A stretch of DNA of 64,000 bases. It comes from Chloroflexota bacterium (GTDB taxonomy: Bacteria > Chloroflexota > Dehalococcoidia > Lucifugimonadales > Lucifugimonadaceae). This document shows positions 908 to 61,788 of the stretch, piece by piece. The stretch covers positions 5,645 to 69,644 of the forward strand of contig JAJRZP010000139.1 in assembly GCA_024275195.1 (NCBI GenBank), written 5' to 3'. The notes beneath the pieces were generated by a model that saw nothing but the letters and a program-made list of their open reading frames with translations, ran no database searches and was not told where the DNA came from. The position numbers were made by a program, and so were the translations under genes. Positions within the stretch are counted from its first letter, which is position 1. The number at the start of each line of letters is the position of its first letter.

Positions 908-1378
908 TCACAGTTTCGCTATCTCATGCAGCAGTTCGTCTGTGGCCGGGATTGAATCGGTATAGACGTTCGACCAGCGGATAGTCCCGTCTGTATCGAT
1001 GATGAATATCGAGCGTTTTGGCATGCCTGTATCTTCATTGAACACGTCAAAAGCCTTCGCCACTTCGCCGTGCGGCCAAAAATCGCTGGCGACCGGGAAT
1101 GGTACACCCCCGACACCTTCGTGCTCCCCCATGCTGGTGACCCATGCTTTTTGAACGGCGAGCGAGTTGCAACTGATCTCGATAATCTCGGTGTTCAGAG
1201 CCTGAAACTTTTCGTAATTTGCGCGGAACCCGCGCACCTGGTTCAGTCAGCCACCAGTGAAGCTGGCTGGGTGGAATCCAACGACCACTACCTTGCCGCG
1301 CAGGTTCGAAAGCCTTATATCGCCTGAATGGGCGCTCAGTGAGATATCTGGTGCCGGTGTACCGGGCTGAAGTGCCAT
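908..1378 (-). CDS. peroxiredoxin (AhpC/TSA-BCP type) with in-frame UGA at the peroxidatic-Cys position; predicted selenoprotein
   Basis: The ORF track gives only the C-terminal 109 aa. The same frame extended upstream reads MALQPGTPAPDISLSAHSGDIRLSNLRGKVVVVGFHPASFTGG-TGA-LNQVRGFRANYEKF..., starting from ATG at 1378 with AAGGAG 12 nt upstream. The PxxxTxxC motif is intact except that TGA (1247-1249) stands in for Cys. Confidence 0.8.
1220..1236 (-). promoter_or_regulatory. SECIS-like hairpin downstream of the peroxiredoxin UGA
   Basis: The minus-strand RNA UGCGCGG-GUU-CCGCGCA forms a 7-bp GC-rich stem with a GU-containing apical loop. The stem begins about 11 nt after the UGA, and the loop lies 18-20 nt downstream of it. 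Confidence 0.5.
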
Positions 1379-1436
1379 ATGAACTTACTACTCCTTATTC
1401 TTATAGTTTTTCTGAACGATCTTGTCGCGAGGGATT

Positions 1437-2288
1437 TTACGCACGATCCCAATCCCATATTCGCAACGCATTGCCGCCAAGATACTTGTCTCGCTCTAAG
1501 GGTGTCAGCCAGTCGAAGCCTTCTCTAACCAACTTCAGTTCGTCTTCGAGCGACAACCAACCATGTTCCACTCGGTGATATCCGGGATACCCCGTACCCC
1601 ACATCACTCGGTCGATCCCGAAGGTATTTACCGCCATTTTGATCACATCGTGCATGTCGGTGAACGGAAACTCGCCTTCGGAACGATTGTGAATATCCGA
1701 AATCTTCATCAAAACGTTATCGTGGATCGCCAATGCCAGGACGGGTTTGTAGCTATTCCAATCAGGCGCCATATTCGGCTCCGGGTACATCATGTGGTCG
1801 ATCAACCATGTGATACCCGGATACTTCGATGCAACGTAGTCGAGTTGATGTGCATGCTCAGGTCGATTGTGGATCTGGACAATACCTCCGCGTTTCTCGA
1901 TCTGCCGAAACATCGCTTCGTTCTCTGAACGTTTCAGAATATCGACATCTGGGTAGTACTGCGGGTGGAACCGGAATCCCTGCATCTTCCGCTCGTCCAT
2001 CCAATGAACAGCAGTCTCAGCGTTGTTGTTGTCCATCGGATCGACCAATCCCATCGAGACGAATCGATCCGGGTACTTGATGGCCGAAGCCGCCACGTAC
2101 TCGTTATCCCACGTAGAGAAGGAAGTCTGAACCAGAACGGTCTTGTCGACGCCATTCTCGTCCATATCGGCCAGTAAGAGTTCAGCATTACCATGCGCCG
2201 CGGGTTTCGATGTGAAGTTTGGTGCGCTCGGACCAATCGGTGCAATCGGTGGCATCTCCCATATATGAACGTGGGTATCGACAATCAT
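1437..2288 (-). CDS. amidohydrolase_2-family metal-dependent hydrolase (TIM barrel)
   Basis: 283 aa with N-terminal MIVDTHVHIW metal-binding motif. Length and motifs are typical of the ACMSD/LigI/lactonase-type amidohydrolase_2 family. Confidence 0.85.
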   Translation of the reverse strand: MIVDTHVHIWEMPPIAPIGPSAPNFTSKPAAHGNAELLLADMDENGVDKTVLVQTSFSTWDNEYVAASAIKYPDRFVSMGLVDPMDNNNAETAVHWMDERKMQGFRFHPQYYPDVDILKRSENEAMFRQIEKRGGIVQIHNRPEHAHQLDYVASKYPGITWLIDHMMYPEPNMAPDWNSYKPVLALAIHDNVLMKISDIHNRSEGEFPFTDMHDVIKMAVNTFGIDRVMWGTGYPGYHRVEHGWLSLEDELKLVREGFDWLTPLERDKYLGGNALRIWDWDRA

Positions 2289-2521: not shown

Positions 2522-3988
2522 CTACTCGGCGGGCGCCCACCGCAGCACCGGCTTGCGCGCTGCCGTCGCTTCGTCGAGGCGGGTAACCGGTAGATCGTGC
2601 GGCGCCTCGAGGATCACTGCAGGGTTCGAGTCAATTTCGTCGTCGATCTGTCGCATTACGGCGATGAAGTGATCGAGAGTCTCTTTCGATTCCGATTCTG
2701 TAGGTTCGACCATCAAAGCTTCGTCAACAATCAGCGGAAAGTACATCGTTGGTGCGTGAATGCCGAAGTCGAGAAGGCGTTTGGCAATATCGATCCCCGC
2801 GACACCACGCTTTTTCTGTCGCGTCGCTGAGAGAACGGTTTCGTGCATGCAGTACCGGTCGGCAGCGAGATCGTACTTGTCTCGTAACTTCGCCTGAATG
2901 TAGTTGGCGCTGATGATCGCATTCTCGGACACCGATTGCAGCCCTTCGAGTCCCAGCGCCTTTATGTACGCATACGCTCGTGCAGCTATCGAGAACGATC
3001 CGTGAAAGCCATTGATCGTGCCGATCGACTGTTCTGGGCTTGCCAGCAGATAACCAGCGTCGGCCTTCTCAGCAACCGGCTTAGGCAGGTACTTCGCCAG
3101 TTCGTCGGTGACCATTACCGGACCCGATCCAGGGCCACCCCCGCCGTGCGGGGTTGAGAACGTTTTATGAAGATTCGAATGGCAGATATCGACGCCCAGA
3201 TCACCGAGCTTCACGAGTCCCAACAACGCATTGAGGTTTGCGCCATCGGCGTACACAAGACCGCCAGCATTGTGAATGATGGTGGTTATTTCGAGAATAT
3301 TCGGTTCGAACAATCCGAGCGTACTCGGAATCGTCAGCATGAACACTGCGGTGTTCGAACTGGCCAGCTCTTTCAGGTTCTCAACGTCCACGTTGCCCTG
3401 TGCGTCCGAGCGAACTGTGACTACGTCAAGGCCAGCCATCGAAGCCGAGGCAGGGTTGGTGCCGTGGGCAGAGTCAGGAACGATAGCGACGGTGCGTTTA
3501 TCGTCGTTGCGTGCATCGTGATAAGCCCGGGCGATGAGCAGACCTGCATACTCGCCCTGTGCGCCAGCGAGCGGCGCAAGAGAAACTCCCGGTAGTCCGG
3601 TTATCTCGCCAAGATCATCCTGTAGCGCCTTCAAGAGCCGGATTGCACCCTGAACCGTTTCTTCGGGCTGAAGTGGGTGAATTTCGGCAAGACCGGGAAG
3701 ATTCGCCAGCTCGTCATTGATCTTCGGGTTGTACTTCATCGTGCACGAACCCAGGGGATAGAAATTTGTGTCGATCGAAAAGTTGAGTTGACTCAACACC
3801 GAGAAATACCGAATCACATCGAGCTGTGAGACCTCTGGGAGTTCAACGTCGTCGCGAAGAAGAGAAGAATCAGGCAACTCCTGGGCGGGTACGTCGGACT
3901 CTGGAACCGTGAAGGCTTTTCGCCCTGTCACTGAGCGATCCATAAGCAGTCGGCGGTCCAGGTCACCTGCATTGGTGGTGATTGTCAT
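2522..3988 (-). CDS. gcvPB: glycine dehydrogenase (decarboxylating) subunit 2
   Basis: 488 aa with clear P-protein C-terminal-half similarity (PLGSCTMKYNP, NLHKTFSTPHGGGGPG). Its start overlaps the gcvPA stop (ATGA). Confidence 0.95.
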   Translation of the reverse strand: MTITTNAGDLDRRLLMDRSVTGRKAFTVPESDVPAQELPDSSLLRDDVELPEVSQLDVIRYFSVLSQLNFSIDTNFYPLGSCTMKYNPKINDELANLPGLAEIHPLQPEETVQGAIRLLKALQDDLGEITGLPGVSLAPLAGAQGEYAGLLIARAYHDARNDDKRTVAIVPDSAHGTNPASASMAGLDVVTVRSDAQGNVDVENLKELASSNTAVFMLTIPSTLGLFEPNILEITTIIHNAGGLVYADGANLNALLGLVKLGDLGVDICHSNLHKTFSTPHGGGGPGSGPVMVTDELAKYLPKPVAEKADAGYLLASPEQSIGTINGFHGSFSIAARAYAYIKALGLEGLQSVSENAIISANYIQAKLRDKYDLAADRYCMHETVLSATRQKKRGVAGIDIAKRLLDFGIHAPTMYFPLIVDEALMVEPTESESKETLDHFIAVMRQIDDEIDSNPAVILEAPHDLPVTRLDEATAARKPVLRWAPAE

Positions 3989-27732: not shown

Positions 27733-27809
27733 GGTCCCGTGGTGTAGCGGCCTAACACGCCTCCCTGTCAAGGAGGAGATCGGCAGTTCGAATCTGCTCG
27801 GGATCGCCA
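27733..27809 (+). tRNA. tRNA-Asp (anticodon GUC), CCA encoded
   Basis: GGTCCCGTGGTGTAGCGGCCTAACACGCCTCCCTGTCAAGGAGGAGATCGGCAGTTCGAATCTGCTCGGGATCGCCA folds as a cloverleaf with anticodon loop CTGTCAA. Confidence 0.9.
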
Positions 27810-27848: not shown

Positions 27849-28019
27849 TGCATTTAAGAATCGATTGACTGGCGGGTCACCTCTGACTGCCAGACTCTAT
27901 CTGCCGTACCAGATCCAGTCGTGCAATGGGGGTCAATCTGGCGTTAGGATGTGTCATGAGGGGCTCCGTTTACTGGTGGGGTGAATCTTTTCCACACAGC
28001 AATACCGGAGAACTCTCAC

Positions 28020-30818: not shown

Positions 30819-32570
30819 TTGCCAGAACGCCCGATCTCGTTACGCCGTGCAGCCGAAATAATCGGTGTGCACCACTCGACTCTCGCCCGCGCGGTAAACC
30901 GCGGCGATGTTAAGCCTGTAACCACTACACCAGGGGGCTGGAATCGATTCTCAAGACGGGATATAGAACGATACGCACGGGCTCTTGAAGCATCCGAGGC
31001 GGCGCGTAGTCAGATCAACGCTCCAACGGTGGATCGTGCCCTGATGGACATTCCAAAACTCGCCCGTGAACTTACAGGTGCCGACTACGCCGCCGTTACC
31101 GTCCAACAATCGAATGGTCGCCCTCTCCGCATATATCACGACGGGCTCGAGAGCGACATCGACTGGAAATCGCATGAGTTGCCGCGTGGGCGTGGCGTGC
31201 TAGGGAAGCTCGGTCATGCCGACTCTCCACTTAGGCTCGATGATCTCTCGTCTCACCCCGATTCATACGGGTTTCCTGACTGGCATCCGCCAATGCAGGC
31301 TCTGCTCGGTGTACAGGTCACCAATAGCGCAGGACTGAAGGCCAACCTCTATCTTGCAAATTCGCCCGGTAATCGAAAGTTCACCGTTGAAGACGAATAC
31401 CTCTTGACTCAACTGACCCATTTCGCTCAACTGGCTCTCGATTCGGCGAACCTTTACGAGCGCGAGCGTGAGAATCGTGTACTGGCTGAATCGGCTGAGC
31501 GTCGGCTTCAGGCAGTTATCGAGGAATCTACTGTTGGCGTGCTGATCGTCGAGGCTGAAACCAGGTTGCTGGTTGGGTCGAGTCAGGAGGCGCGACGCCT
31601 GTTTGGGCACTCTCTCGATCTTGGAATGACGCTCGACGACGTATATCAACTTGCTACTTTGTACGATGGCGATGGCAAGCTGGTGACAAACAACGAGTCA
31701 CCACTGGAGTTGGCACTGGTCAGTAAGAAACTGACGCGTCCGCAAGAGATGCTGTTTGAACGTGCTAACGGTTCACGTGTTCCGGTAGTTGTAACGGCAG
31801 CACCCATCGGATCTGAAAATGGCGGGCTCGACTCGGCTGTACTGATTTTTCAGGACGTCACACAAATTCACGAGGTTGACGACGCCAAGAAAGAGTTCTT
31901 ATCGATGATCACCCACGATCTACGATCACCTCTGGCAACCATCAAAGGCATGGCAGGCTCGCTCAACGCAATTTCCGAACCCGATAGCGAGATCAAGCTC
32001 GGACTGGACGCAATCGACGAGGAAGTCGACCACATGACCGAGCTTGTATCCAATATTCTTGACATGTCGCGAATCGAATCTGGAACCCGGGGAGTTGAAC
32101 GGGAAATATGTCACATGGCAGACATCGTCCAGGATGCCATCCGACGAACACTAGGATCAAGGCATGGACAGGGCAGGTCAATAAAAGCAACAATCCCTTC
32201 AGGATTCCCCGAAATGTATGCAGACCCCGGTCAGTTGGGCAGAGTTTTAGATAACCTACTGAGTAATGCAATGAAGTACGCCCCCGGAAATGTCGAGATC
32301 GTAAACTCATACGACGTTAAAACCGACACAATTCATACCGAAGTGATCGATCAAGGTGAAGGCATACCAGCTTCACAGCACAAAGAAATATTCGATAAGT
32401 TCTACCGACTCCGTGAGGGACGGGCACGGGGGCGAGAGGGTTCAGGATTAGGACTCGCAATCTGTAAATCTGTGATCGGAGCGCATGGTGGAAAGATCGG
32501 CGTAAACAACAATCCTCAGGGCGGCGCCACGTTCTGGTTTGAATTCCCAAGAGACCCTGATCAGGCATGA
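30819..32570 (+). CDS. cytoplasmic sensor histidine kinase with N-terminal HTH, GAF and PAS domains
   Basis: The N-terminus LRRAAEIIGVHHSTLARAVNRGDVKPV is an excisionase/MerR-like HTH. A GAF-like region and a PAS-like region follow, then HisKA (FLSMITHDLRSPL) and an HATPase_c with N/G1/G2 boxes. No TM segments. Confidence 0.9.
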   Translation: MPERPISLRRAAEIIGVHHSTLARAVNRGDVKPVTTTPGGWNRFSRRDIERYARALEASEAARSQINAPTVDRALMDIPKLARELTGADYAAVTVQQSNGRPLRIYHDGLESDIDWKSHELPRGRGVLGKLGHADSPLRLDDLSSHPDSYGFPDWHPPMQALLGVQVTNSAGLKANLYLANSPGNRKFTVEDEYLLTQLTHFAQLALDSANLYERERENRVLAESAERRLQAVIEESTVGVLIVEAETRLLVGSSQEARRLFGHSLDLGMTLDDVYQLATLYDGDGKLVTNNESPLELALVSKKLTRPQEMLFERANGSRVPVVVTAAPIGSENGGLDSAVLIFQDVTQIHEVDDAKKEFLSMITHDLRSPLATIKGMAGSLNAISEPDSEIKLGLDAIDEEVDHMTELVSNILDMSRIESGTRGVEREICHMADIVQDAIRRTLGSRHGQGRSIKATIPSGFPEMYADPGQLGRVLDNLLSNAMKYAPGNVEIVNSYDVKTDTIHTEVIDQGEGIPASQHKEIFDKFYRLREGRARGREGSGLGLAICKSVIGAHGGKIGVNNNPQGGATFWFEFPRDPDQA

Positions 32571-36034: not shown

Positions 36035-36138
36035 TGAATGTTCCAGTCAAGATTTCGAGAGTGATTGAGAGCGGTCATCGAGATCAGATGAACGCCTCGC
36101 CGACCGCGACGGCGCAGCAATGATACCCAGAAGCCATA

Positions 36139-36257
36139 GATTTCCCGAGCGTAGTCGAGGGGCCTCTCAGGGGTTAACTCTCGACACTCGCCAACGACGA
36201 TTCTCAGGCAATTGAACGTCGTATCCACCGAGATCCCTCGACTACGCTCGGGAAATC
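36139..36257. repeat. perfect 23-bp inverted repeat with a 73-nt spacer
   Basis: The left arm GATTTCCCGAGCGTAGTCGAGGG (36139-36161) is exactly complementary to the right arm CCCTCGACTACGCTCGGGAAATC (36235-36257). It lies in the intergenic region between the GH15 gene and the dehydratase gene. Confidence 0.8.
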
Positions 36258-36299
36258 GGTTGCTGGCGGTCTATAAATTTCATCAACTTCAGCGAAATT

Positions 36300-40817: not shown

Positions 40818-42035
40818 TTGAAAATCACCGACATCAAAACCCACGTCGTTATGCCGATTCCGGGACTGGCATGGCTGTTCGTTGAAGTCGAGACCGACGA
40901 GGGCGTAACAGGGCTCGGTGAATGCACCGACTACGCCGTGAATAGCCATCTTGTCCGCGGCCTCGACGCGATCAAGCCACTTGTCGTTGGATCAGATCCC
41001 AAGAACATCGAAGAAATATGGCAACGAATATTTCATGTGAACTCGGACCTCAACGGCCGTGGCTACATTTCTCACCTCATTAGCGCTATCGATATCGCTC
41101 TTTGGGACATCAAAGGAAAGGTGCTCGGAGCACCTATTTACGATTTGCTGGGCGGACCGGTACGCGAAAGCGTCCCGCTCTACACCCACGTTCGAGACAT
41201 CAGCGCGGGTCAGGGTATCGACACGCTTATCGAGGAAGCAAAACTCACGGTCGCTGCTGGATACAAAGCGATCAAGACCGACCCCTTCCCTAGCCGACGC
41301 ACCATGGGCGAAACCTTTTACGGAGCCAACATGGTCGAGCAGATGGAGCCCAGGGCAATAGCCGAGGCGGTCGAGTGGATGGAGGCGCTACGCGAGACCG
41401 TCGGGCCCGATTACGAAATACTCGTCGATGCCCACGCCCGAATGGATGTCGCCTCAGCCATCAAAGCTGCAAATGCAATCGAACACATTGATCTCGTCTG
41501 GTTCGAAGAACCTACGCACGTCGAGAATCACAACTCGCTACGCCAGATACGCGAAAACACAAACGTGCCGCTCTGTGTCGGTGAACGACATTTCACTCGC
41601 TGGGATTACGATGTGATTCTGAGTGACCGTTTGGTCGACTACATCATGCCCGACATTGCATGGTGCGGTGGAATCAGTGAAATCCGGCGAATCGCAGCGA
41701 TGGCTGAAACACAGTACATTCGAGTCAGTCCGCATGATGCACTGGGTCCTGTGGCGATAGCAGCATCGTTCCAGGCATCGATCGCCATACCAAACCTCTA
41801 CCGAGAAGAATGTCTGCATACCTGGTTCGATGCCTTCGAGAAGATCATCACACCAATGTTCGATGTTCGCGATGGCTCGATCTATCCGAACGGGCGCCCC
41901 GGACTCGGAATCGAGCTGATTCCAGAAGCGATCGAGGAGTTCAGGGTTGATGTTGATTCGCCCGAGGCACAACCCGGGTGGTGGAACAAAGCCAATATGG
42001 CGACCGGTGCGTGGGCGACCGAAGATAACGAGTAG
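40818..42035 (+). CDS. enolase-superfamily acid-sugar dehydratase (D-galactonate dehydratase-like)
   Basis: A TTG start gives MKITDIKTHVV..., the usual N-terminus of this family, with AGGA about 10 nt upstream. Motifs include FVEVETDEGVTGLGE and IDIALWDIKGKVLGAPIYDLLGG. The track start at 40704 lies inside repeat copy F. Confidence 0.88.
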   Translation: MKITDIKTHVVMPIPGLAWLFVEVETDEGVTGLGECTDYAVNSHLVRGLDAIKPLVVGSDPKNIEEIWQRIFHVNSDLNGRGYISHLISAIDIALWDIKGKVLGAPIYDLLGGPVRESVPLYTHVRDISAGQGIDTLIEEAKLTVAAGYKAIKTDPFPSRRTMGETFYGANMVEQMEPRAIAEAVEWMEALRETVGPDYEILVDAHARMDVASAIKAANAIEHIDLVWFEEPTHVENHNSLRQIRENTNVPLCVGERHFTRWDYDVILSDRLVDYIMPDIAWCGGISEIRRIAAMAETQYIRVSPHDALGPVAIAASFQASIAIPNLYREECLHTWFDAFEKIITPMFDVRDGSIYPNGRPGLGIELIPEAIEEFRVDVDSPEAQPGWWNKANMATGAWATEDNE

Positions 42036-50350: not shown

Positions 50351-51376
50351 ATGCGCAAGAAGCCTATGATGGCGTTGTTGATCGTCTTTCTGATTGCAAG
50401 TGCTGCCTGCGTCGGCGTTGATGAGACAAACGCAACTGCGACAGCCGAAGCTGGAGGAACCGACAGGCAGTTTCTGGCCGACAACGCAACTGCAACAGCC
50501 GAGGCCGATGGGTTCGACGATAGAATACTGGTCTTTGACGCTACTGCCACGGCTGAAGCGGGCGGGTCGGACGACAGGTTACGTAACGCTTACGCGACAG
50601 CTACCGCCGAGGCAATCATCGATGAGGCGACATCCGTCGCTTACGACTTGGTTTACGACGCTACATCCACTGCGATAGCGATCGAGGATGAGGAGGAGGC
50701 CGCAAAAGCAGCACCCGAATCGGGCGAGCGACAAGCATTGACCCGGGCGTCAAAAATTGAAATCAGCACCCCTACGCCGGTTCCTGCTACTGCAACACCT
50801 GTACCGGTCGTGGTTCCAACAGCCACACAGGTACCAGTTCCTACTGCAACTGAAATACCTCTCACGATTGGCCTCTGGCTAACCGCACTTCAGGCGATTG
50901 AAATCGCATCTCAAGCCCAGCCTGGAATCGTGAAATATATCAGCGGTCACGTTTCACCACGCGCAGGGCGGGGCGACTACGGTGATGTCACATCCAACAC
51001 ACCAAGTCCGGGCGCTGGCTATTCATCATCATGGGAAGTGATGTTTGTAGATGGTGGTAAAGACTATTTGTGCGTGGTGCAAGCCGCCACTGCTGACTGT
51101 GGTCCAGGTTTTGGCTTCATTGACCCCGGCGACATTACCGGAGCAGATATCGATAGTTTGGCCGTGTTCGAAACATGGCGAGACAACGCCGAATGGAACG
51201 AACTTCTTGCAAATGACGACATAAGTACTCTGATGATACTTGAACCGGACGCAGGGGAAGGGACACCGTTGGTCTGGCGAGTCTATATCACCGTTCGCGG
51301 AGAATCGAACGGTTTGTCTGGCGGAAGTTTCTTCTGGACCCCGGCTACCAACTTTACTAAGTCCATCCCCTACTGA
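50351..51376 (+). CDS. hypothetical lipoprotein, paralogue 1 (ATATAEA repeats plus a conserved C-terminal domain)
   Basis: Signal peptide with lipobox (IASAAC) and four ATATAEA-type repeats. The C-terminal ~190 aa are clearly similar to the next gene. Confidence 0.7.
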   Translation: MRKKPMMALLIVFLIASAACVGVDETNATATAEAGGTDRQFLADNATATAEADGFDDRILVFDATATAEAGGSDDRLRNAYATATAEAIIDEATSVAYDLVYDATSTAIAIEDEEEAAKAAPESGERQALTRASKIEISTPTPVPATATPVPVVVPTATQVPVPTATEIPLTIGLWLTALQAIEIASQAQPGIVKYISGHVSPRAGRGDYGDVTSNTPSPGAGYSSSWEVMFVDGGKDYLCVVQAATADCGPGFGFIDPGDITGADIDSLAVFETWRDNAEWNELLANDDISTLMILEPDAGEGTPLVWRVYITVRGESNGLSGGSFFWTPATNFTKSIPY

Positions 51377-51493
51377 CCGTCCGGATTACGTACCCGTTTC
51401 AAATCGAACAGGGAGCAGATATTGTTTCCGTGTAAACAATGCATCTGAGCGTAGATGCGTCGTTTACAGTTCGAGCGCGGGGAGTTCAGGTAC

Positions 51494-52423
51494 ATGAACG
51501 ACAAAGTTCTGGGGGCAATGCTCGTTGTGTTGCTGCTCGCAATTGTCGGCTGCGAGAGCATCAACGAGATCGACACCGGCGGCGTCGAAGTCAACGGTTT
51601 ATCAGCCGGTGCGACCGCGACTATTCAGATAGTTCCGACAGCAAGGCCAACCGTTACAGCTACAGCGATTCCTATCGAACCCACAGCCAAGGCCGAGCCA
51701 CAGGATTCGCAACAAGGCGACGCGCCGGAATTCGCCAATCCAGAGGCAACCGTGTCCGCAGTCGACACACCGACCGTTGCCTTAGCCACAGTGGACACAA
51801 ATCCGACAACCACAGCTTCATCGCCGACTGCCACACCACATGCTGTGCCTACCACACCACCGCCAACCGCCACTCCCGTACCAACTCCAACAACCGAACC
51901 TGTGGAAAACATTGTTTGGATCACAGCACTAAAAGCGGTTGAGATCGCGTCCATTGCCAGACCCGGCACAGTTATAAATGTCAGCGGTCAGACCACGTCC
52001 CGGGTCGGGCAACGTAACATCGGAGACACTCTGAATGCCTTTGGAAGTCCCGGAGCCGGTTATTCGCTATCGTGGGAAGTAACGATCAACGATGGCGACC
52101 AGAAGTATCTGTGTGTGGTTCTCGGTGACATCGCAACGTGCAATACATCCCCCGGTACTTCCACCGGGGATATCTCTGGTGCGAACGTAGATAGCACGGC
52201 AGTATTCGAAATTTGGGAAGGCAACCCGGACTGGAATGAACTGCTGAACAACAATGACGCAAGCATCATGCTCAATCTATACGGCACGGACGAAGAGCCT
52301 TCAGCGCTCATCTGGCAAGCGTCGATAACTGTCGATGGAAACCCAATAGACCTGCGCGGCGGGAGCTTCAAGTGGACTCTCGAATCTGGCGAAACGAGTT
52401 TCACCACATACAAGCCGGGTTGA
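51494..52423 (+). CDS. hypothetical lipoprotein, paralogue 2
   Basis: ATG 51494 (GGGGAG upstream) gives MNDKVLGAMLVVLLLAIVGC with a lipobox. A Thr/Pro-rich linker follows. The C-terminal domain shares WxTALxAxEIAS...SPGAGYSxSWEV...YLCVV...C with 50351..51376. Confidence 0.7.
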   Translation: MNDKVLGAMLVVLLLAIVGCESINEIDTGGVEVNGLSAGATATIQIVPTARPTVTATAIPIEPTAKAEPQDSQQGDAPEFANPEATVSAVDTPTVALATVDTNPTTTASSPTATPHAVPTTPPPTATPVPTPTTEPVENIVWITALKAVEIASIARPGTVINVSGQTTSRVGQRNIGDTLNAFGSPGAGYSLSWEVTINDGDQKYLCVVLGDIATCNTSPGTSTGDISGANVDSTAVFEIWEGNPDWNELLNNNDASIMLNLYGTDEEPSALIWQASITVDGNPIDLRGGSFKWTLESGETSFTTYKPG

Positions 52424-52596
52424 TGCTCACCCGGTACAGATATCAGCCGCCTGGAGCGAAAATCGACAGTTAGCGGTTGCACTCGTTTCACTTTCCAGCT
52501 TCATTGCTAAACTTGCGCCATCCCAAGGATAGATCGTTCGCTGTTGTTCTGGCAGACCTGATGCAGGATCTCGAATCGATAACACGAGGTGGTCAA

Positions 52597-53766
52597 TTGA
52601 AGATCAAGTCCGTGAAAGCTGTGATCGTAAAGCTGCCAGAAGCAGCGAGTAAAACCAGACCAACCAGGCTGTCTTGGAATAAGTCGGCAAAACGGGCGAT
52701 GCCAGTAAACATCTACCCGGAATACTCCAACTTGCCCGGTGAAATGCCGGGTGGCGGACTCAAGACTGTGTGGGTGCAGGTCACCGCTGAGGATGGAACC
52801 TGGGGGCTTGGGAAGTGCGCATTCGGCGATCCTACGGCGGCGTTCGTGAACACTGTTATCGCCCCGATAATCGAAGGTCAGAATTGCCTTGCCATCGAAT
52901 ACCTGAACGACTTGACCCTTCGTGTTTCGCACCGATTCGGATCCTCTGGCACCGCATCGACGGCTATGGCTGGAGTCGATCTTGCCCTGTGGGACCTCAA
53001 AGGCAAGATCCTCAATCAACCCGTGTACTCACTGCTTGGTGGGCCGGTTCGTGACTCGATAACCTGCTACGCCACCTCTGATGATCTTGACTGGTCGCAG
53101 GAACTCGGATTCACGAAGTTCAAGATCACTAATCCGTCGCACTATTCAGATGGTGACACCGGGATCAGGACAGTTGTGGAACACGTCGCCAAGGCGCGTT
53201 CTCTGGTGGGTGATGGGCGCGATCTGATGATTAATCCGGTGATGTCGTTCAATGTCGAATTTGCTTTGCGCCTTCTTGAACAGCTCAGGCCATACAACCT
53301 GCGATGGTTCGAGGAACCCCTCGTACCAACCAATACCGAGGGACTCGCCCATCTCCGCAGGGCCGCCCCGTGGGTAGCAATCGCGACAGGAGAAGACCAT
53401 CACGGTCGCCACGCCTTTCTCGATCTCGTGGAAAAACGAGCGGTCGACATCATCCAACCTGATCTCAGTTGGGGCGGCGGCCTAACTGAAGCAATGAAGG
53501 CGCACGCTATCGCCGAGATGTGCGGCATAGCGACGATTCCACATGGCGGAGCAAACGATCCGTTCGGGCAGCACTTCGCAATGGCAGCTACCGAATCACC
53601 GATGGCCGAATACTGGCTCGGGACCGATCCGGGTGTGCCACTCGAAGAGACTGTACGAATTCCCGGCACGGCCGTTCCCGTAGAGGGCCAGGTGAAGCCA
53701 TCGCCCGAGCCCGGGTTCGGCATGCAATTCGAATCAGGTGATATCGCCGACTGGGGGTCGAACTAG
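52597..53766 (+). CDS. enolase-superfamily dehydratase, L-rhamnonate dehydratase-like (paralogue 1)
   Basis: A TTG start with GAGGTGG upstream gives MKIKSVKAV. The protein is collinear with the RhmD pattern (VDLALWDLKGKILNQPVYSLLGG, YATSDDL, NLRWFEEPL, TGEDHHG, IQPDLSWGGG, PGFG). Confidence 0.88.
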   Translation: MKIKSVKAVIVKLPEAASKTRPTRLSWNKSAKRAMPVNIYPEYSNLPGEMPGGGLKTVWVQVTAEDGTWGLGKCAFGDPTAAFVNTVIAPIIEGQNCLAIEYLNDLTLRVSHRFGSSGTASTAMAGVDLALWDLKGKILNQPVYSLLGGPVRDSITCYATSDDLDWSQELGFTKFKITNPSHYSDGDTGIRTVVEHVAKARSLVGDGRDLMINPVMSFNVEFALRLLEQLRPYNLRWFEEPLVPTNTEGLAHLRRAAPWVAIATGEDHHGRHAFLDLVEKRAVDIIQPDLSWGGGLTEAMKAHAIAEMCGIATIPHGGANDPFGQHFAMAATESPMAEYWLGTDPGVPLEETVRIPGTAVPVEGQVKPSPEPGFGMQFESGDIADWGSN

Positions 53767-53767
53767 C

Positions 53768-54952
53768 ATGAAGATAAAACACGTTCGCTGTATTCAGCTA
53801 AACACTCCGGTCGTCAAACCCGGGCCCAACACGCGCCCCGGCTGGAACTCCTACGCCATTCGTTCAAGGCCCATAGCGAGATTCTCGAACTACACGCGTG
53901 TCGATGGGAACCAACCCGGCACTATTGGAAAAGTCTGGGTTCAAATCACTGCTGACGACGGGACCTATGGGCTTGGCTCGTGCGCTCTCGGCCCAATGGC
54001 GGCACCGCTGATCGACTACTTTATTGCGCCGATGATAGAAGGACGCGATCCCTTCGCAATCGAACTCTTGAACGACCTCATATGGCGTTCACACGAGACT
54101 TTTCAGGGAGGCATCGCTACCGCGGCACAGAGCGGAGTTGATCTGGCACTCTGGGATCTGAAGGGTAAGCTGCTGGAACGACCCGTCTACGAGTTGATCG
54201 GTGGGCCGAGCCACAAGTCGGTCGACCTCTACGCGACGGGTGACGATCTCGAGTGGATGCGTGAGCTTGGGTTCAAACGGTTCAAAATCAGCAACCCGTT
54301 CTTCTATGAGCAGGGATCTGAAGGCCTGGCTCAGCTTGAAGAACATGTCGCACATGCCCGTGATGTCGTAGGGAACGATGCAGAGCTGATGATCAACCCG
54401 GTGATGTCGTTCAACGCCGATATGGCGCTCCGAGTCGCAGAACGGCTCAGACCGTACAAGTTGCGGTGGCTCGAAGAGCCACTTCCTCCGTGGGATCTGG
54501 AAGGGCACAAAGAACTGAAACGATCCATGACCTGGACCGCCCTCGCAACTGGCGAACACCACTATGGCCGTAAGTCGTTCCAGCAGTTAATCGCCGCCCG
54601 CGCCGTCGATATCGTCCAGCCCGATATCGAGTGGACTGGAGGATTCTCAGAGACGCTTAAGATTTACACCTACGCCGAAGCGGCAGGAATTGAAACGATC
54701 ACTCACATGGGCGGCAATACCGCCTGGGGACAACATTTCGCGTATGCAATGCCCGAATCATCGCAGGCGGAGTGGTTCATGGACACCGATGTTGGCCAGC
54801 CCGTTGCCGACAAGCTGATGCCGGGAGTGCCTGCGATGAAAGACGGCAGGGTAACTCCTTCCGACGCACCGGGGTTCGGTCTGGAAATTCCCGAAGACTG
54901 GATCGTACCGTGGGACTACGCAGGTCAGAAACGTGCGGTTTACACCACCTAG
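53768..54952 (+). CDS. enolase-superfamily dehydratase, L-rhamnonate dehydratase-like (paralogue 2)
   Basis: The ATG lies 1 nt after the upstream stop and gives MKIKHVRCIQL. The motif set matches 52597..53766 (KLRWLEEPL, TGEHHYG, VQPDIEWTGG). Confidence 0.88.
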   Translation: MKIKHVRCIQLNTPVVKPGPNTRPGWNSYAIRSRPIARFSNYTRVDGNQPGTIGKVWVQITADDGTYGLGSCALGPMAAPLIDYFIAPMIEGRDPFAIELLNDLIWRSHETFQGGIATAAQSGVDLALWDLKGKLLERPVYELIGGPSHKSVDLYATGDDLEWMRELGFKRFKISNPFFYEQGSEGLAQLEEHVAHARDVVGNDAELMINPVMSFNADMALRVAERLRPYKLRWLEEPLPPWDLEGHKELKRSMTWTALATGEHHYGRKSFQQLIAARAVDIVQPDIEWTGGFSETLKIYTYAEAAGIETITHMGGNTAWGQHFAYAMPESSQAEWFMDTDVGQPVADKLMPGVPAMKDGRVTPSDAPGFGLEIPEDWIVPWDYAGQKRAVYTT

Positions 54953-55070: not shown

Positions 55071-55109
55071 ACGTCCCGTCTCCTGTGCGGAGAGCTTCTG
55101 TGGCTGTGG
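55071..55109 (+). repeat. intergenic conserved element, copy A
   Basis: ACGTCCCGTCTCCTGTGCGGAGAGCTTCTGTGGCTGTGG lies 137 nt upstream of the ATG at 55247. Confidence 0.55.
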
Positions 55110-55246: not shown

Positions 55247-56431
55247 ATGAAAATCACAGCTGTAGATACATTCGTCGTCGATGCCGGATGGAGGCCCTGG
55301 CAATACGTTGCAGTCCGAACAGATGAGGGACTGACCGGATACGGCGAAATGTCAGATGGACGAAATCCATATGGCATCGTTGGGGCAGTTACCGATTTTC
55401 TGCCAGTACTCGAAGGGCGGGATCCGCTCGCTGTCGAGATGCGCTACTGGGACATGTATCGAATGGCGAGGCAATCACCTGGTGGAATCGCGGCAAAAGC
55501 GATTGCTGGGATTGAACTCGCACTTTGGGACATCAAGGGCAAGTCGCTTGGTGTGCCTGTCTACTCGCTGTTCGGCGGCCCAACTCGACAGAGTCAGCAA
55601 GTCTACTGGTCACACTGTGGAAGCTCTCGTGTTGCTCAGTCAGAACTGATCGGAGTCCCACCACTCGATTCGTTCGAGGCAGTGACCGAGCTTGGTGCGG
55701 AAGTGCGTGAAAAGGGATTCAAGGCCCTCAAAACAAACATCAACTACCCCGGACCAAACGCTCATGCCTATGTCGGTGGGTTTGGAACTGGCTCGACCGA
55801 CCAGAATGTGACCAAGGAAACCCTCGATCACGTTGAAAAGTACATCGGGGCGTTCGAAGACGGCACGAAGGGAGAAGTACAGATAGCACTCGACCTCAAC
55901 TTCCACTTCAAGCCACTGGCAGCACGGCTGATCTGCAACGTGATGGAGCAGTTCAACACCATGTGGGTCGAGATTGACATGTACGAGCCGGCGGGACTCG
56001 CCGAAGTCAAGGCTGGGACTATGGTTCCGATCACCTCGGGCGAAAACCTGTTCGGCATCCGAAACTACAGGCCGTACTTCGAGAATCGTTCGATGGACAC
56101 CGTGATGATCGATGTACCGTGGAACGGGTTCTCACGTTCCAGAGACATCGCAATGCTTGCTGAAAGCTACGAACTCAACATCGCACCACACAACTACTAC
56201 TCCCACCTGTCAACGATGCACTCGCTTCACCTCTGTGCGACCGTCCCGAACGTACGAATCATGGAAGCTGACATCGATGACGTCCCGTGGAAGGACGATC
56301 TAACTGGCGGCGCACTCGACTACACCGGAGGGGAACTACAGATACCAACCACCCCCGGCTGGGGAGTTGAACTAAACGAAGATGTAGCCCGGAAACACGT
56401 CTGGGAGCCAGGCCGAGGCCCGGGGTACTAG
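55247..56431 (+). CDS. enolase-superfamily acid-sugar dehydratase (galactonate-dehydratase-like)
   Basis: ATG 55247 gives MKITAVDTFVV, the family-typical N-terminus. IELALWDIKGKSLGVPVYSLFGG is present. The 79 upstream codons of the track ORF look non-coding and contain repeat copy A. Confidence 0.88.
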   Translation: MKITAVDTFVVDAGWRPWQYVAVRTDEGLTGYGEMSDGRNPYGIVGAVTDFLPVLEGRDPLAVEMRYWDMYRMARQSPGGIAAKAIAGIELALWDIKGKSLGVPVYSLFGGPTRQSQQVYWSHCGSSRVAQSELIGVPPLDSFEAVTELGAEVREKGFKALKTNINYPGPNAHAYVGGFGTGSTDQNVTKETLDHVEKYIGAFEDGTKGEVQIALDLNFHFKPLAARLICNVMEQFNTMWVEIDMYEPAGLAEVKAGTMVPITSGENLFGIRNYRPYFENRSMDTVMIDVPWNGFSRSRDIAMLAESYELNIAPHNYYSHLSTMHSLHLCATVPNVRIMEADIDDVPWKDDLTGGALDYTGGELQIPTTPGWGVELNEDVARKHVWEPGRGPGY

Positions 56432-56459: not shown

Positions 56460-56497
56460 ACGTCCCGACTCCTGCGGAGGGATCTTCGGTGGGGAGG
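56460..56497 (+). repeat. intergenic conserved element, copy B
   Basis: ACGTCCCGACTCCTGCGGAGGGATCTTCGGTGGGGAGG lies 43 nt upstream of the ATG at 56541. Its 28-nt core differs from copy C at one position. Confidence 0.7.
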
Positions 56498-61747: not shown

Positions 61748-61788
61748 ACGTCATCCCGACTCCTGTGGAGGGATCTTCGGTGGTGTGG
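61748..61788 (+). repeat. intergenic conserved element, copy C
   Basis: ACGTCATCCCGACTCCTGTGGAGGGATCTTCGGTGGTGTGG lies inside a 690-nt non-coding gap, 365 nt upstream of the FGGY kinase start. Confidence 0.7.

What the first reader, a model, noticed from the sequence alone, without database searches (positions are those of the whole stretch)
908..1378. Peroxiredoxin with an in-frame UGA at the peroxidatic cysteine position, followed by a SECIS-like hairpin (predicted selenoprotein)
The six-frame track shows only a 109-aa fragment starting at GTG 1237. Read by hand, the same frame continues upstream to ATG 1378, which has AAGGAG 12 nt upstream. It reads MALQPGTPAPDISLSAHSGDIRLSNLRGKVVVVGFHPASFTGG-TGA-LNQVRGFRANYEKF.... 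The single TGA (1247-1249) sits exactly where the PxxxTxxC peroxiredoxin motif has its catalytic Cys, giving P-A-S-F-T-G-G-U. About 11 nt downstream the mRNA can form UGCGCGG-GUU-CCGCGCA (1220-1236), a 7-bp GC stem with a GU-containing apical loop. That is the position and shape expected of a bacterial SECIS element. TGA is a normal stop elsewhere in the window, for example in gcvPA at 3985-3987 and the histidine kinase at 32568-32570, so this is local recoding and not an alternative genetic code. Sec-for-Cys replacement in thiol peroxidases is an established phenomenon. An ordinary annotation pipeline would truncate or split this gene.
Basis: partly seen in the sequence, partly recalled or inferred. 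Interest (0 to 1): 0.72.

Follow-up and report, generated by a model that had tools for sequence, protein, structure and literature searches.

The report
Selenocysteine peroxiredoxin gene of SAR202 bacteria
This is a real, intact gene for a small peroxide-destroying enzyme whose catalytic residue is almost certainly selenocysteine, encoded by a recoded UGA stop codon. It belongs to a selenoprotein family already well known from marine bacteria, but public annotations wrongly split it in two.

Summary
On the minus strand, ATG 1378 to stop 908-910 is one 156-codon AhpC/TSA peroxiredoxin reading frame. Its single in-frame TGA (1247-1249) sits exactly at the peroxidatic-Cys column. A 7-bp hairpin (1220-1236) follows 10 nt later.

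Comparative evidence is strong. Counting the window, 88 sequences from marine Dehalococcoidia/SAR202 carry TGA at this codon, 13 distant relatives carry TGC/TGT, and no other codon occurs. One of the 88 is the orthologue in the complete genome of cultured Ca. Lucifugimonas marina. The 43 codons upstream of the TGA are under purifying selection (pN/pS 0.18). The true terminator drifts among TAG, TAA and TGA, but codon 44 never changes. Synonymous sites in the hairpin codons are frozen (p = 2e-4). Two 44-46%-identical TGA homologues have different hairpins at the same place. The hairpin fits the published bacterial SECIS model.

Not verified: selA, selB, selD and tRNA-Sec were not found in the DNA I could reach, and the parent genome could not be searched.

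Sec-peroxiredoxins with the TxxU motif have been known since 2001 and are abundant in ocean metagenomes. This is therefore a new, AhpE-like member of a known kind. GenBank and JGI split or truncate it. Interest is modest.

The parts
908..1378 (-). Complete peroxiredoxin coding sequence: 156 codons plus the terminal TGA at 908-910, read through one internal UGA.
   Evidence: Pfam AhpC-TSA 1.5e-32 spans residues 5-135, on both sides of the TGA. tblastn matches residues 1-156 in 17 genomes.
1247..1249 (-). In-frame UGA, codon 44: predicted selenocysteine at the peroxidatic position (P37-x3-T41-x2-U44).
   Evidence: It aligns to the Cp of AhpE. It is TGA in 88 of 88 Sec-clade sequences and TGC/TGT in 13 distant relatives. 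It is invariant, while the true terminator varies among TAG, TAA and TGA.
1220..1236 (-). SECIS-like hairpin UGCGCGG-GUU-CCGCGCA: 7-bp stem, GUU loop, 17 nt between the UGA and the loop.
   Evidence: -12.3 kcal/mol in a 36-nt context. It meets all four bSECIS model criteria (PMC13188914). Synonymous diversity is 0-0.12 against 0.53 elsewhere, p = 1.8e-4. 99.6% of cells are paired, with one compensatory G-C to A-U change and seven G-C to G-U changes.
1391..1396 (-). Shine-Dalgarno-like AAGGAG, 12 nt upstream of ATG 1378.
   Evidence: GGAG is present at the same distance in all 17 orthologous loci.
1376..1378 (-). Start codon ATG.
   Evidence: ATG followed by conserved MALQPGT is present in all 17 full-length orthologues. 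An in-frame TAA lies at 1385-1387 upstream.
1013..1015 (-). Codon for Arg122, the conserved active-site arginine of peroxiredoxins.
   Evidence: It aligns to the Arg of the AhpE segment 'NRGTFVVD' and is invariant in the family alignment.
1437..2288 (-). Upstream neighbour, an Amidohydro_2 family gene. It is followed by a 58-nt gap and then the peroxiredoxin gene, and may be co-transcribed with it.
   Evidence: Pfam 5.2e-29. L016 has a comparable arrangement: a 294-aa ORF directly upstream of the orthologue, not itself tested for homology. No convincing promoter or terminator lies between the two genes.

Best explanation
The region encodes one 156-residue, AhpE-like peroxiredoxin with a single redox-active residue, in which selenocysteine replaces the peroxidatic cysteine.

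Proposed mechanism: during translation, the UGA at codon 44 is recoded by the bacterial Sec pathway. The hairpin that begins 10 nt downstream acts as the SECIS element. It recruits SelB carrying Sec-tRNA(Sec) to the ribosome, so Sec is inserted and translation continues to the real stop at 908-910.

In the enzyme, the selenolate of U44 attacks a hydroperoxide, positioned by P37, T41 and R122, and forms a selenenic acid. Because the family has no conserved second cysteine, an external thiol partner, not identified here, must reduce it back.

Shown: gene continuity, the position and conservation of the UGA, the Sec/Cys pairing with homologues, the presence of the hairpin and RNA-level selection on it, and normal use of TGA as a stop elsewhere.

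Inferred: that the inserted residue is Sec, that SelB binds this hairpin, the peroxidase activity, and the reductant.
For: 1. Family and column. Pfam AhpC-TSA 1.5e-32. The best solved relative is M. tuberculosis AhpE at 2.4e-20, with the TGA aligned to its Cp and a shared SDFWPHG..VFNE motif. P37, T41 and R122 are invariant.

2. Sec/Cys signature. 88 sequences (42-46 distinct) have TGA at this codon, 13 distant relatives have TGC/TGT, and nothing else occurs.

3. Both halves are translated. Codons 1-43 have pN/pS 0.18, against 0.23 for codons 55-81. ATG and GGAG are conserved.

4. The internal TGA does not behave as a generic stop. The terminal stop varies (TAG 29, TAA 13, TGA 8), while codon 44 is TGA in 50 of 50 distinct coding sequences.

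5. Hairpin.
- It meets the bSECIS model of PMC13188914: 3-nt loop starting with GU, 7-bp stem, 17-nt spacing, -12.3 kcal/mol.
- 44 of 46 distinct Sec-type sequences comply, against 1 of 13 Cys-type relatives and 3.1% of background positions.
- Synonymous diversity at the hairpin codons is 0-0.12 against a mean of 0.53 at 59 other degenerate codons, Mann-Whitney p = 1.8e-4. This is the only such stretch in the gene.
- One compensatory G-C to A-U change and seven G-C to G-U changes were seen.
- Two TGA-bearing homologues at 44-46% identity (L094, L095) have unrelated sequence but still form a hairpin at the same offset.

6. Not an alternative genetic code. 8 of 36 long ORFs in the window end in TGA.

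7. Lineage context. Relatives are marine Dehalococcoidia/SAR202, including cultured Ca. Lucifugimonas marina. BSepDB lists two Dehalococcoidia MAGs with 46-49 selenoprotein genes among organisms that possess the Sec pathway (PMC13326102).

8. Precedent. Prx with the TxxU motif is an established selenoprotein family (PMC1088965, PMC5029168, PMC13188914).
Against: - No selA, selB, selD or tRNA-Sec was found in the 64-kb window or in about 0.75 Mb of related loci. Linkage is not expected, but the machinery remains unverified for this genome.
- No second selenoprotein gene was found in the sampled DNA.
- The folding energy of the hairpin alone is not significantly better than shuffles (z from -0.95 to -1.8).
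- Covariation support is thin: four of seven pairs never vary, and the one compensatory change is in a single lineage.
- Rfam has no match.
- L090 and L095 miss my strict implementation of the bSECIS rules.
- No experimental data on selenium incorporation exist for this protein.
Confidence: 0.9

Rival explanations
1. The UGA is recoded through the hairpin and a SelB-like factor, but the inserted residue is not Sec. It could be Cys delivered by a UCA-anticodon tRNA, or the read-through could be near-cognate Trp or Cys, giving an ordinary thiol peroxiredoxin or an inactive protein.
For: No Sec-synthesis genes could be found or searched for. Sequence analysis cannot tell which amino acid is inserted. 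Some ENA gene calls translate the codon as W (P0002), but that reflects a code-4-style call of a TGA codon (L090/L091).
Against: The exclusive TGA/Cys pairing at a catalytic redox site, together with a bSECIS-type hairpin, is the standard signature of true selenoproteins (PMC13188914). Trp at the peroxidatic position would abolish catalysis, yet the gene is under purifying selection. If Cys were the product, a TGC/TGT codon would be simpler, and none occurs in 88 sequences. Dehalococcoidia are reported to be rich in selenoproteins (PMC13326102).
Confidence: 0.05
2. The TGA is a true stop. The locus is a pseudogene, or a split gene producing a 43-aa peptide and a separate 109-aa C-terminal protein starting at GTG 1237, as public annotations have it.
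For: Gene callers and GenBank/JGI annotate exactly these pieces.
Against: - The stop is conserved at one codon in 88 sequences spanning down to 61% identity, and in two more at 44-46%. There are never frameshifts, and never TAA or TAG at this position.
- Both halves are under equal purifying selection.
- The 109-aa piece would lack the whole PxxxTxxC active site.
- GTG 1237 lies next to the hairpin and has no upstream GGAG.
Confidence: 0.02
3. The organism uses a genetic code in which TGA is a sense codon (Trp or Gly, as in codes 4 and 25).
For: Some ENA calls read the codon as W.
Against: TGA terminates 8 of 36 long ORFs in the window, including gcvPA and this gene itself. It also terminates the orthologue in 8 of 50 relatives. 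The TGA screen of the window turned up no other plausible TGA-interrupted gene.
Confidence: 0.01
4. The conserved hairpin is not a SECIS element. It is some other RNA-level signal, such as an mRNA stability element or a translational pause or attenuation site, that merely coincides with the TGA.
For: The hairpin's energy is unremarkable against shuffles, covariation is thin, and Rfam has no match.
Against: Its position, loop composition and spacing fit the bSECIS model (PMC13188914). Divergent TGA homologues keep a hairpin at the same offset with different sequence, whereas 12 of 13 Cys homologues lack one. This rival offers no explanation for a conserved in-frame UGA at the catalytic residue.
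Confidence: 0.02

Closest known systems
Selenocysteine-containing peroxiredoxins with the TxxU motif, found in marine metagenomes and bacterial genomes (Sargasso Sea 43 genes, PMC1088965; about 7% of GOS selenoprotein genes, PMC9402790; 91 genes in 78 organisms, PMC5029168)
   Same: PF00578 domain; Sec in the peroxidatic position of PxxxTxxU; a bacterial SECIS hairpin immediately after the UGA; marine bacterial origin.
   Different: I could not determine whether those published sets already include this SAR202 subfamily. This one is AhpE-like, short (156 aa), and has no conserved second Cys.
PrxU of Eubacterium acidaminophilum, the experimentally shown Sec-peroxiredoxin (Sohling et al. 2001, cited in PMC13188914; NCBIfam NF040737 peroxi_PrxU)
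   Same: A thiol-peroxidase fold with Sec replacing the peroxidatic Cys.
   Different: The window protein scores 81 bits against a 270-bit cutoff for NF040737. It is therefore not a PrxU equivalog but a different Prx subfamily, from an aerobic marine Chloroflexota lineage and not from an anaerobic Firmicute.
AhpE (Rv2238c) of Mycobacterium tuberculosis, a 1-Cys, mycoredoxin-dependent peroxiredoxin (PDB 1xvw, 1xxu, 4x0x, 5c04)
   Same: Best solved-structure match (2.4e-20); same length class (153 against 156 aa); shared FHPxxFTGxC/U and SDFWPHG..VFNE motifs; conserved Arg; no resolving Cys. The nearest full-length Cys homologues in the large protein database are named mycoredoxin-dependent peroxiredoxin.
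   Different: Cys in AhpE against UGA here. The match to Prx1-type chains is only slightly weaker (1.5e-19). The reductant in SAR202 is unknown.
Bacterial SECIS consensus (the bSECISearch model as summarised in PMC13188914), with E. coli fdhF as the prototype
   Same: Stem-loop in the coding region just 3' of the UGA; loop of 3-9 nt with G then U in the first positions; 4-16 bp stem; 16-37 nt spacing; MFE at or below -7.5 kcal/mol. All criteria are met.
   Different: The loop (3 nt) and the spacing (17 nt) are near the lower limits of the model. No bulged U is evident. SelB binding is untested.

Membership tests
Peroxiredoxin (AhpC/TSA, PF00578) | Significant match to the family profile across the thioredoxin-fold domain | tested here: met
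   PF00578 1.5e-32, 112.6 bits against a cutoff of 26, residues 5-135. 125 PDB peroxiredoxin sequences matched.
Peroxiredoxin (AhpC/TSA, PF00578) | PxxxT/SxxC active-site motif plus the conserved distal Arg | tested here: met
   P37-A-S-F-T41-G-G-U44, with the UGA in the Cys column. R122 aligns to the AhpE Arg. All are invariant in the family.
Peroxiredoxin (AhpC/TSA, PF00578) | Peroxidase activity | not testable with these tools
   Requires an enzyme assay of the expressed selenoprotein.
AhpE subfamily (1-Cys type) | Closest similarity to AhpE, and absence of a conserved resolving Cys | tested here: met
   Top PDB hits are AhpE entries, though Prx1-type chains are close behind. The only other Cys (C70) is present in 24 of 50 family members. 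The nearest Cys homologues are named mycoredoxin-dependent peroxiredoxin.
PrxU (NCBIfam NF040737 equivalog) | Score above the curated cutoff | tested here: not met
   81 bits against a cutoff of 270.
Bacterial selenoprotein | In-frame UGA aligned with Cys in homologues, conserved among orthologues | tested here: met
   88 TGA, 13 TGC/TGT, no other codon.
Bacterial selenoprotein | SECIS stem-loop immediately 3' of the UGA that fits the bSECIS model | tested here: met
   against the criteria in PMC13188914. Selection on the RNA is shown. Rfam has no match.
Bacterial selenoprotein | Genome encodes selA, selB, selD and tRNA-Sec | not testable with these tools
   Absent from the window and from about 0.75 Mb of fetched loci. 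The whole parent genome and NZ_CP046146.1 could not be searched because the collection scans were exhausted. The only indirect support is BSepDB listing Dehalococcoidia MAGs with 46-49 selenoproteins.
Bacterial selenoprotein | Selenium demonstrably incorporated at the UGA position | not testable with these tools
   Needs 75Se labelling or mass spectrometry.

The most novel reading that the evidence does not exclude
This may be the first recognised natural selenocysteine form of the AhpE-type peroxiredoxin subfamily, one with a single redox-active residue and no resolving Cys. It is fixed across the SAR202 clade, including the cultured strain Ca. Lucifugimonas marina. If so, selenium supply could be a hidden determinant of peroxide tolerance in this abundant and hard-to-grow ocean lineage. 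The selenenic acid intermediate would also need an as yet unknown reductant.
Probability: 0.3. Interest if true: 0.45.

Novelty: new member of a known kind. Interest (0 to 1): 0.3.

Why it matters
It corrects a systematic annotation error. GenBank (for example the 43-aa WFG34222.1 of Ca. Lucifugimonas marina), JGI, ENA and Tara records all list this widespread SAR202 gene as fragments that lack the active site.

It adds an AhpE-like branch to the Sec-peroxiredoxins, and it places a testable selenoprotein in a strain that can now be grown in the laboratory.

Beyond that, it confirms what is already understood: marine bacteria commonly replace the peroxidatic Cys of thiol peroxidases with Sec.

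Tried and rejected
- Sec machinery, local search. ARAGORN found only tRNA-Val and tRNA-Asp in the window and no tRNA-Sec in 18 loci. tblastn with E. coli SelA, SelB and SelD against the window and all 103 fetched loci found nothing. This is uninformative, because these genes need not be linked to the peroxiredoxin gene.
- Parent contig. An exact look-up of the 109-aa product (P0001) found no record, so I could not extend beyond the window.
- Other selenoprotein genes as corroboration. Three screens found only this gene. The second screen was swamped by conserved off-frame translations.
- Rfam at gathering thresholds and at E-value up to 10: no SECIS family match.
- Covariation. Formal counting gave only one compensatory pair, so I rely on synonymous-site suppression and on the divergent homologues instead.
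- Literature. No paper links SAR202 or Lucifugimonas to selenocysteine. The supplementary files of the cultivation paper contain no sel genes or selenium terms. UBA1141 could not be tied to SAR202. No paper describes a natural Sec-AhpE.
- Searches not run. I ran no further search on SelA or SelD, because E. coli queries would return enterobacterial hits with no link to this genome. I did not run structure prediction, because it would only restate the Prx fold.
- A possible repeat at 56 kb and 61 kb turned out to be a 35-nt motif unrelated to the finding.

Full report
**Observation**

- AAGGAG lies at 1396-1391 and is followed by a 12-nt spacer. ATG is at 1378-1376.
- The open frame gives MALQPGTPAPDISLSAHSGDIRLSNLRGKVVVVGFHPASFTGG, then TGA at 1249-1247 (codon 44), then LNQVRGFRANYEKF...HEIAKL, and ends at a terminal TGA at 910-908.
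- An in-frame TAA at 1387-1385 prevents any longer N-terminus.
- The mechanical ORF list shows the two pieces separately, 43 aa and 109 aa.
- The sequence UGCGCGG-GUU-CCGCGCA occupies 1236-1220. It begins 10 nt after the UGA and is the predicted minimum-energy structure in every context folded.

**What the protein is**

With the TGA read as Cys, the protein matches Pfam AhpC-TSA (PF00578) at 1.5e-32 over residues 5-135, on both sides of the TGA.

The best solved relative is the 153-residue 1-Cys peroxiredoxin AhpE (Rv2238c) of M. tuberculosis, at 2.4e-20. In that alignment FHPASFTGG-[TGA] lies on FHPLAFTGI-C, the peroxidatic cysteine. The motif SDFWPHGEVAKAFDVFNE lies on SDFWPHGAVSQAYGVFNE, and R122 lies on the active-site arginine. 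Prx1-type chains score only slightly worse (1.5e-19), so the AhpE assignment rests on several further points:
- the protein's length;
- the lack of a conserved second cysteine (C70 is present in only 24 of 50 family members);
- the nearest full-length Cys-containing homologues in the 5.8-billion-protein collection, which are named mycoredoxin-dependent peroxiredoxin.

It is not an equivalog of the characterised selenoprotein PrxU: NF040737 gives 81 bits against a cutoff of 270.

**Comparative evidence that the UGA is decoded**

About 60 close homologues (63-77% identity) in the large protein collection are all called at 100-131 aa and cover only the C-terminal 70% of the query. This is what results when gene callers stop at a conserved in-frame TGA.

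I fetched the DNA for these relatives from two collections.
- One scan of species-representative genomes returned 17 full-length orthologues. All are from marine Dehalococcoidia/Chloroflexota (SAR202-type) MAGs, except one from the complete genome of cultured Ca. Lucifugimonas marina JH545.
- One metagenome scan returned 80 more loci.

In total, counting the window, 88 sequences (42-46 distinct) have TGA at this codon. Thirteen distant relatives have TGC (8) or TGT (5). No other codon, and no TAA or TAG, ever occurs there.

Further points across 50 distinct complete coding sequences (pairwise identity down to 61%):
- All orthologues begin with ATG and the conserved MALQPGT, preceded by GGAG at the same distance.
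- The 43 codons upstream of the TGA have pN/pS = 0.18, the same regime as codons 55-81 (0.23). Both halves are therefore maintained as protein.
- The genuine terminator of the gene drifts freely (TAG 29, TAA 13, TGA 8), while codon 44 is TGA in 50 of 50. A codon that only needed to stop translation would drift in the same way.
- TGA is otherwise a normal stop in this genome, ending 8 of 36 ORFs of at least 200 aa in the window. This excludes a TGA-sense genetic code.
- The single full-length database entry, P0002, reads W at this position. Its DNA (L090/L091) has TGA, so the W is an artefact of a code-4-style gene call.

**The hairpin**

Judged alone, it is unremarkable thermodynamically: z = -1.8, and 13 of 200 dinucleotide shuffles fold as well. 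Rfam has no match even at E-value up to 10. The case for function is comparative.

- *Fit to the published model.* The bacterial SECIS consensus (PMC13188914) requires an apical loop of 3-9 nt, an upper stem of 4-16 bp, a G in the first two loop positions (usually followed by G or U), 16-37 nt between the UGA and the loop, and MFE at or below -7.5 kcal/mol. The window has a GUU loop, a 7-bp stem, 17 nt of spacing and -11 to -12 kcal/mol.
- *Specificity.* Under a strict implementation of those rules, 44 of 46 distinct Sec-type sequences comply, against 1 of 13 Cys-type relatives and 3.1% of arbitrary window positions. Only 0.09% of arbitrary positions have a hairpin this strong and this close. 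Across about 0.75 Mb of fetched DNA, the combination 'TGA-bridged ORF not shadowed by another frame, plus a compliant hairpin' recovered this gene family in 48 loci and only 7 unconserved others.
- *RNA-level selection.* At the four- and six-fold degenerate codons that form the stem (V48, R49, G50, R52, A53), pairwise synonymous diversity is 0-0.12. The mean at 59 other conserved degenerate codons is 0.53 (Mann-Whitney p = 1.8e-4). Codons 44-56 are the only 7-codon windows in the gene with mean diversity below 0.2 (first seen).
- *Pairing.* 99.6% of cells are paired in 40 distinct sequences. One pair changes G-C to G-U in seven sequences. One pair changes G-C to A-U on both sides in the L090 lineage, through a synonymous GTG-to-GTA change and an Ala-to-Val GCA-to-GTA change. 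Four of seven pairs never vary, so formal covariation support is thin.
- *Structure kept without sequence.* Two TGA-bearing homologues at 44-46% identity keep FHPASFTGG-TGA but have entirely different downstream sequence, and each still forms a hairpin at the same offset. L094 has GGAUCCU-CGGU-AGGAUCC, which is model-compliant. L095 has a bulged stem and meets the loop rule only in a suboptimal fold.

**What could not be shown**

The Sec machinery is unverified. No tRNA-Sec and no SelA, SelB or SelD homologue is present in the window or in any fetched locus. These genes need not be linked to the peroxiredoxin gene, and the collection scans that could have reached the rest of the genomes were exhausted. 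No second selenoprotein gene turned up in the sampled DNA.

The only lineage-level support comes from the literature. BSepDB compiles selenoproteins from species that possess the Sec pathway, and it lists two Dehalococcoidia MAGs with 49 and 46 selenoprotein genes among the ten richest bacteria (PMC13326102). I could not establish that those MAGs are SAR202. The SAR202 cultivation paper and its supplements do not mention selenium.

**Mechanism**

The best-supported reading is SelB- and SECIS-dependent insertion of Sec at codon 44, giving a 156-residue AhpE-like peroxiredoxin with a single redox-active residue. Its selenolate reduces hydroperoxides, and the resulting selenenic acid is recycled by an external, unidentified thiol partner, because there is no conserved resolving Cys.

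The gene lies 58 nt downstream of an Amidohydro_2 gene, at the end of a gcvT-gcvH-gcvPA-gcvPB cluster on the same strand. L016 shows a comparable arrangement, with a 294-aa ORF directly upstream of the orthologue. No convincing promoter or terminator separates the two genes, so co-transcription is possible but untested.

Rivals:
- A conserved pseudogene or split gene.
- A TGA-sense genetic code.
- A hairpin with some function other than SECIS.
- Recoding to Cys or Trp instead of Sec.

The first three are each contradicted by several of the results above. Only the last cannot be excluded computationally.

**Comparison with what is known, and novelty**

Sec-containing peroxiredoxins with the TxxU motif are long established.
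- PrxU of Eubacterium acidaminophilum was described in 2001 (cited in PMC13188914).
- Prx makes up about 7% of GOS selenoprotein genes (PMC9402790).
- Peng et al. counted 91 genes in 78 organisms (PMC5029168).

The present gene is therefore a member of a known kind. Three things may be new:
- its AhpE-like subfamily placement (no paper found on a natural Sec-AhpE);
- its fixation across SAR202, including a cultured strain;
- the fact that current public records still split it. GenBank lists a 43-aa 'redoxin domain-containing protein' for Ca. Lucifugimonas marina (WFG34222.1, WFG38151.1, MDG0866728.1), and the 111-aa piece appears separately. JGI names the fragments AhpC or mycoredoxin-dependent peroxiredoxin.

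I could not check whether BSepDB already contains this family.

**Verdict**

Confidence is about 0.9 that this is a selenoprotein gene. The residual doubt is the unverified Sec machinery and the identity of the inserted residue. Novelty: a new member of a known kind. Interest is modest at 0.3. The gene is a clean and useful annotation fix, and it gives a handle on selenium biology in a cultivable SAR202 strain, but it would not surprise a specialist.

Noticed in passing
window 41088-41158, 52975-53045, 54137-54207, 55511-55581: Four paralogous genes share a ~71-nt segment (66-70% identical) encoding (I/V)D(I/L)ALWD(I/L)KGK...P(I/V)Y.L.GG. Three of them lie in a row at 53-55.6 kb. From memory, the motif resembles enolase-superfamily (mandelate racemase/muconate lactonizing) enzymes, whose paralog expansions are a known SAR202 trait. 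I did not test this against a family library.
   Followed up: no
window 56463-56497 and 61754-61788 (weaker copy at 55074-55108): A 35-nt direct repeat, TCCCGACTCCTG(C/T)GGAGGGATCTTCGGTGG, 91% identical between two apparently non-coding stretches about 5.3 kb apart. Its function is unknown.
   Followed up: partly
window 36132-36166 / 36230-36264: An inverted repeat with 35-nt arms, 86% complementary, 63 nt apart.
   Followed up: no
window, hairpin about 40-65 nt 3' of a TGA at 27877-27879 (minus strand), next to tRNA-Asp 27733-27809: A strong 9-bp hairpin, AACGCUCAGG-CGCUUA-CCUGAGCGUU (about -13 kcal/mol), was picked up as a false SECIS candidate. It could be a terminator or a tRNA-flanking structure, but I did not examine it.
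   Followed up: no
window 50351-51376 and 51455-52426 (+): Two tandem ORFs encoding similar proteins. Each has an N-terminal hydrophobic segment, an Ala/Thr/Glu- or Pro/Thr-rich low-complexity region, and a shared C-terminal domain (...PGAGYS(S/L)SWEV...YLCVV...). They are probably duplicated secreted or surface proteins.
   Followed up: no
database proteins P0002, P0091, P0063; clusters: Public gene calls for this family are inconsistent. Most are truncated to 109-115 aa. Some are 43-aa N-terminal stubs named 'redoxin domain-containing protein' (Ca. Lucifugimonas marina WFG34222.1 and others). A few ENA calls read the TGA as W, giving a full-length 157 aa. P0091 and P0063 join the peroxiredoxin sequence to unrelated sequence.
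   Followed up: yes
L094 (metagenome contig Ga0209544_1000175, 98.7 kb) and L095 (Ga0114947_10165183): Two divergent homologues (44-46% identity) from unidentified organisms keep FHPASFTGG-TGA but have different downstream hairpins. The Sec form of this subfamily therefore extends beyond the main clade of close SAR202 relatives. Their hosts were not identified.
   Followed up: partly
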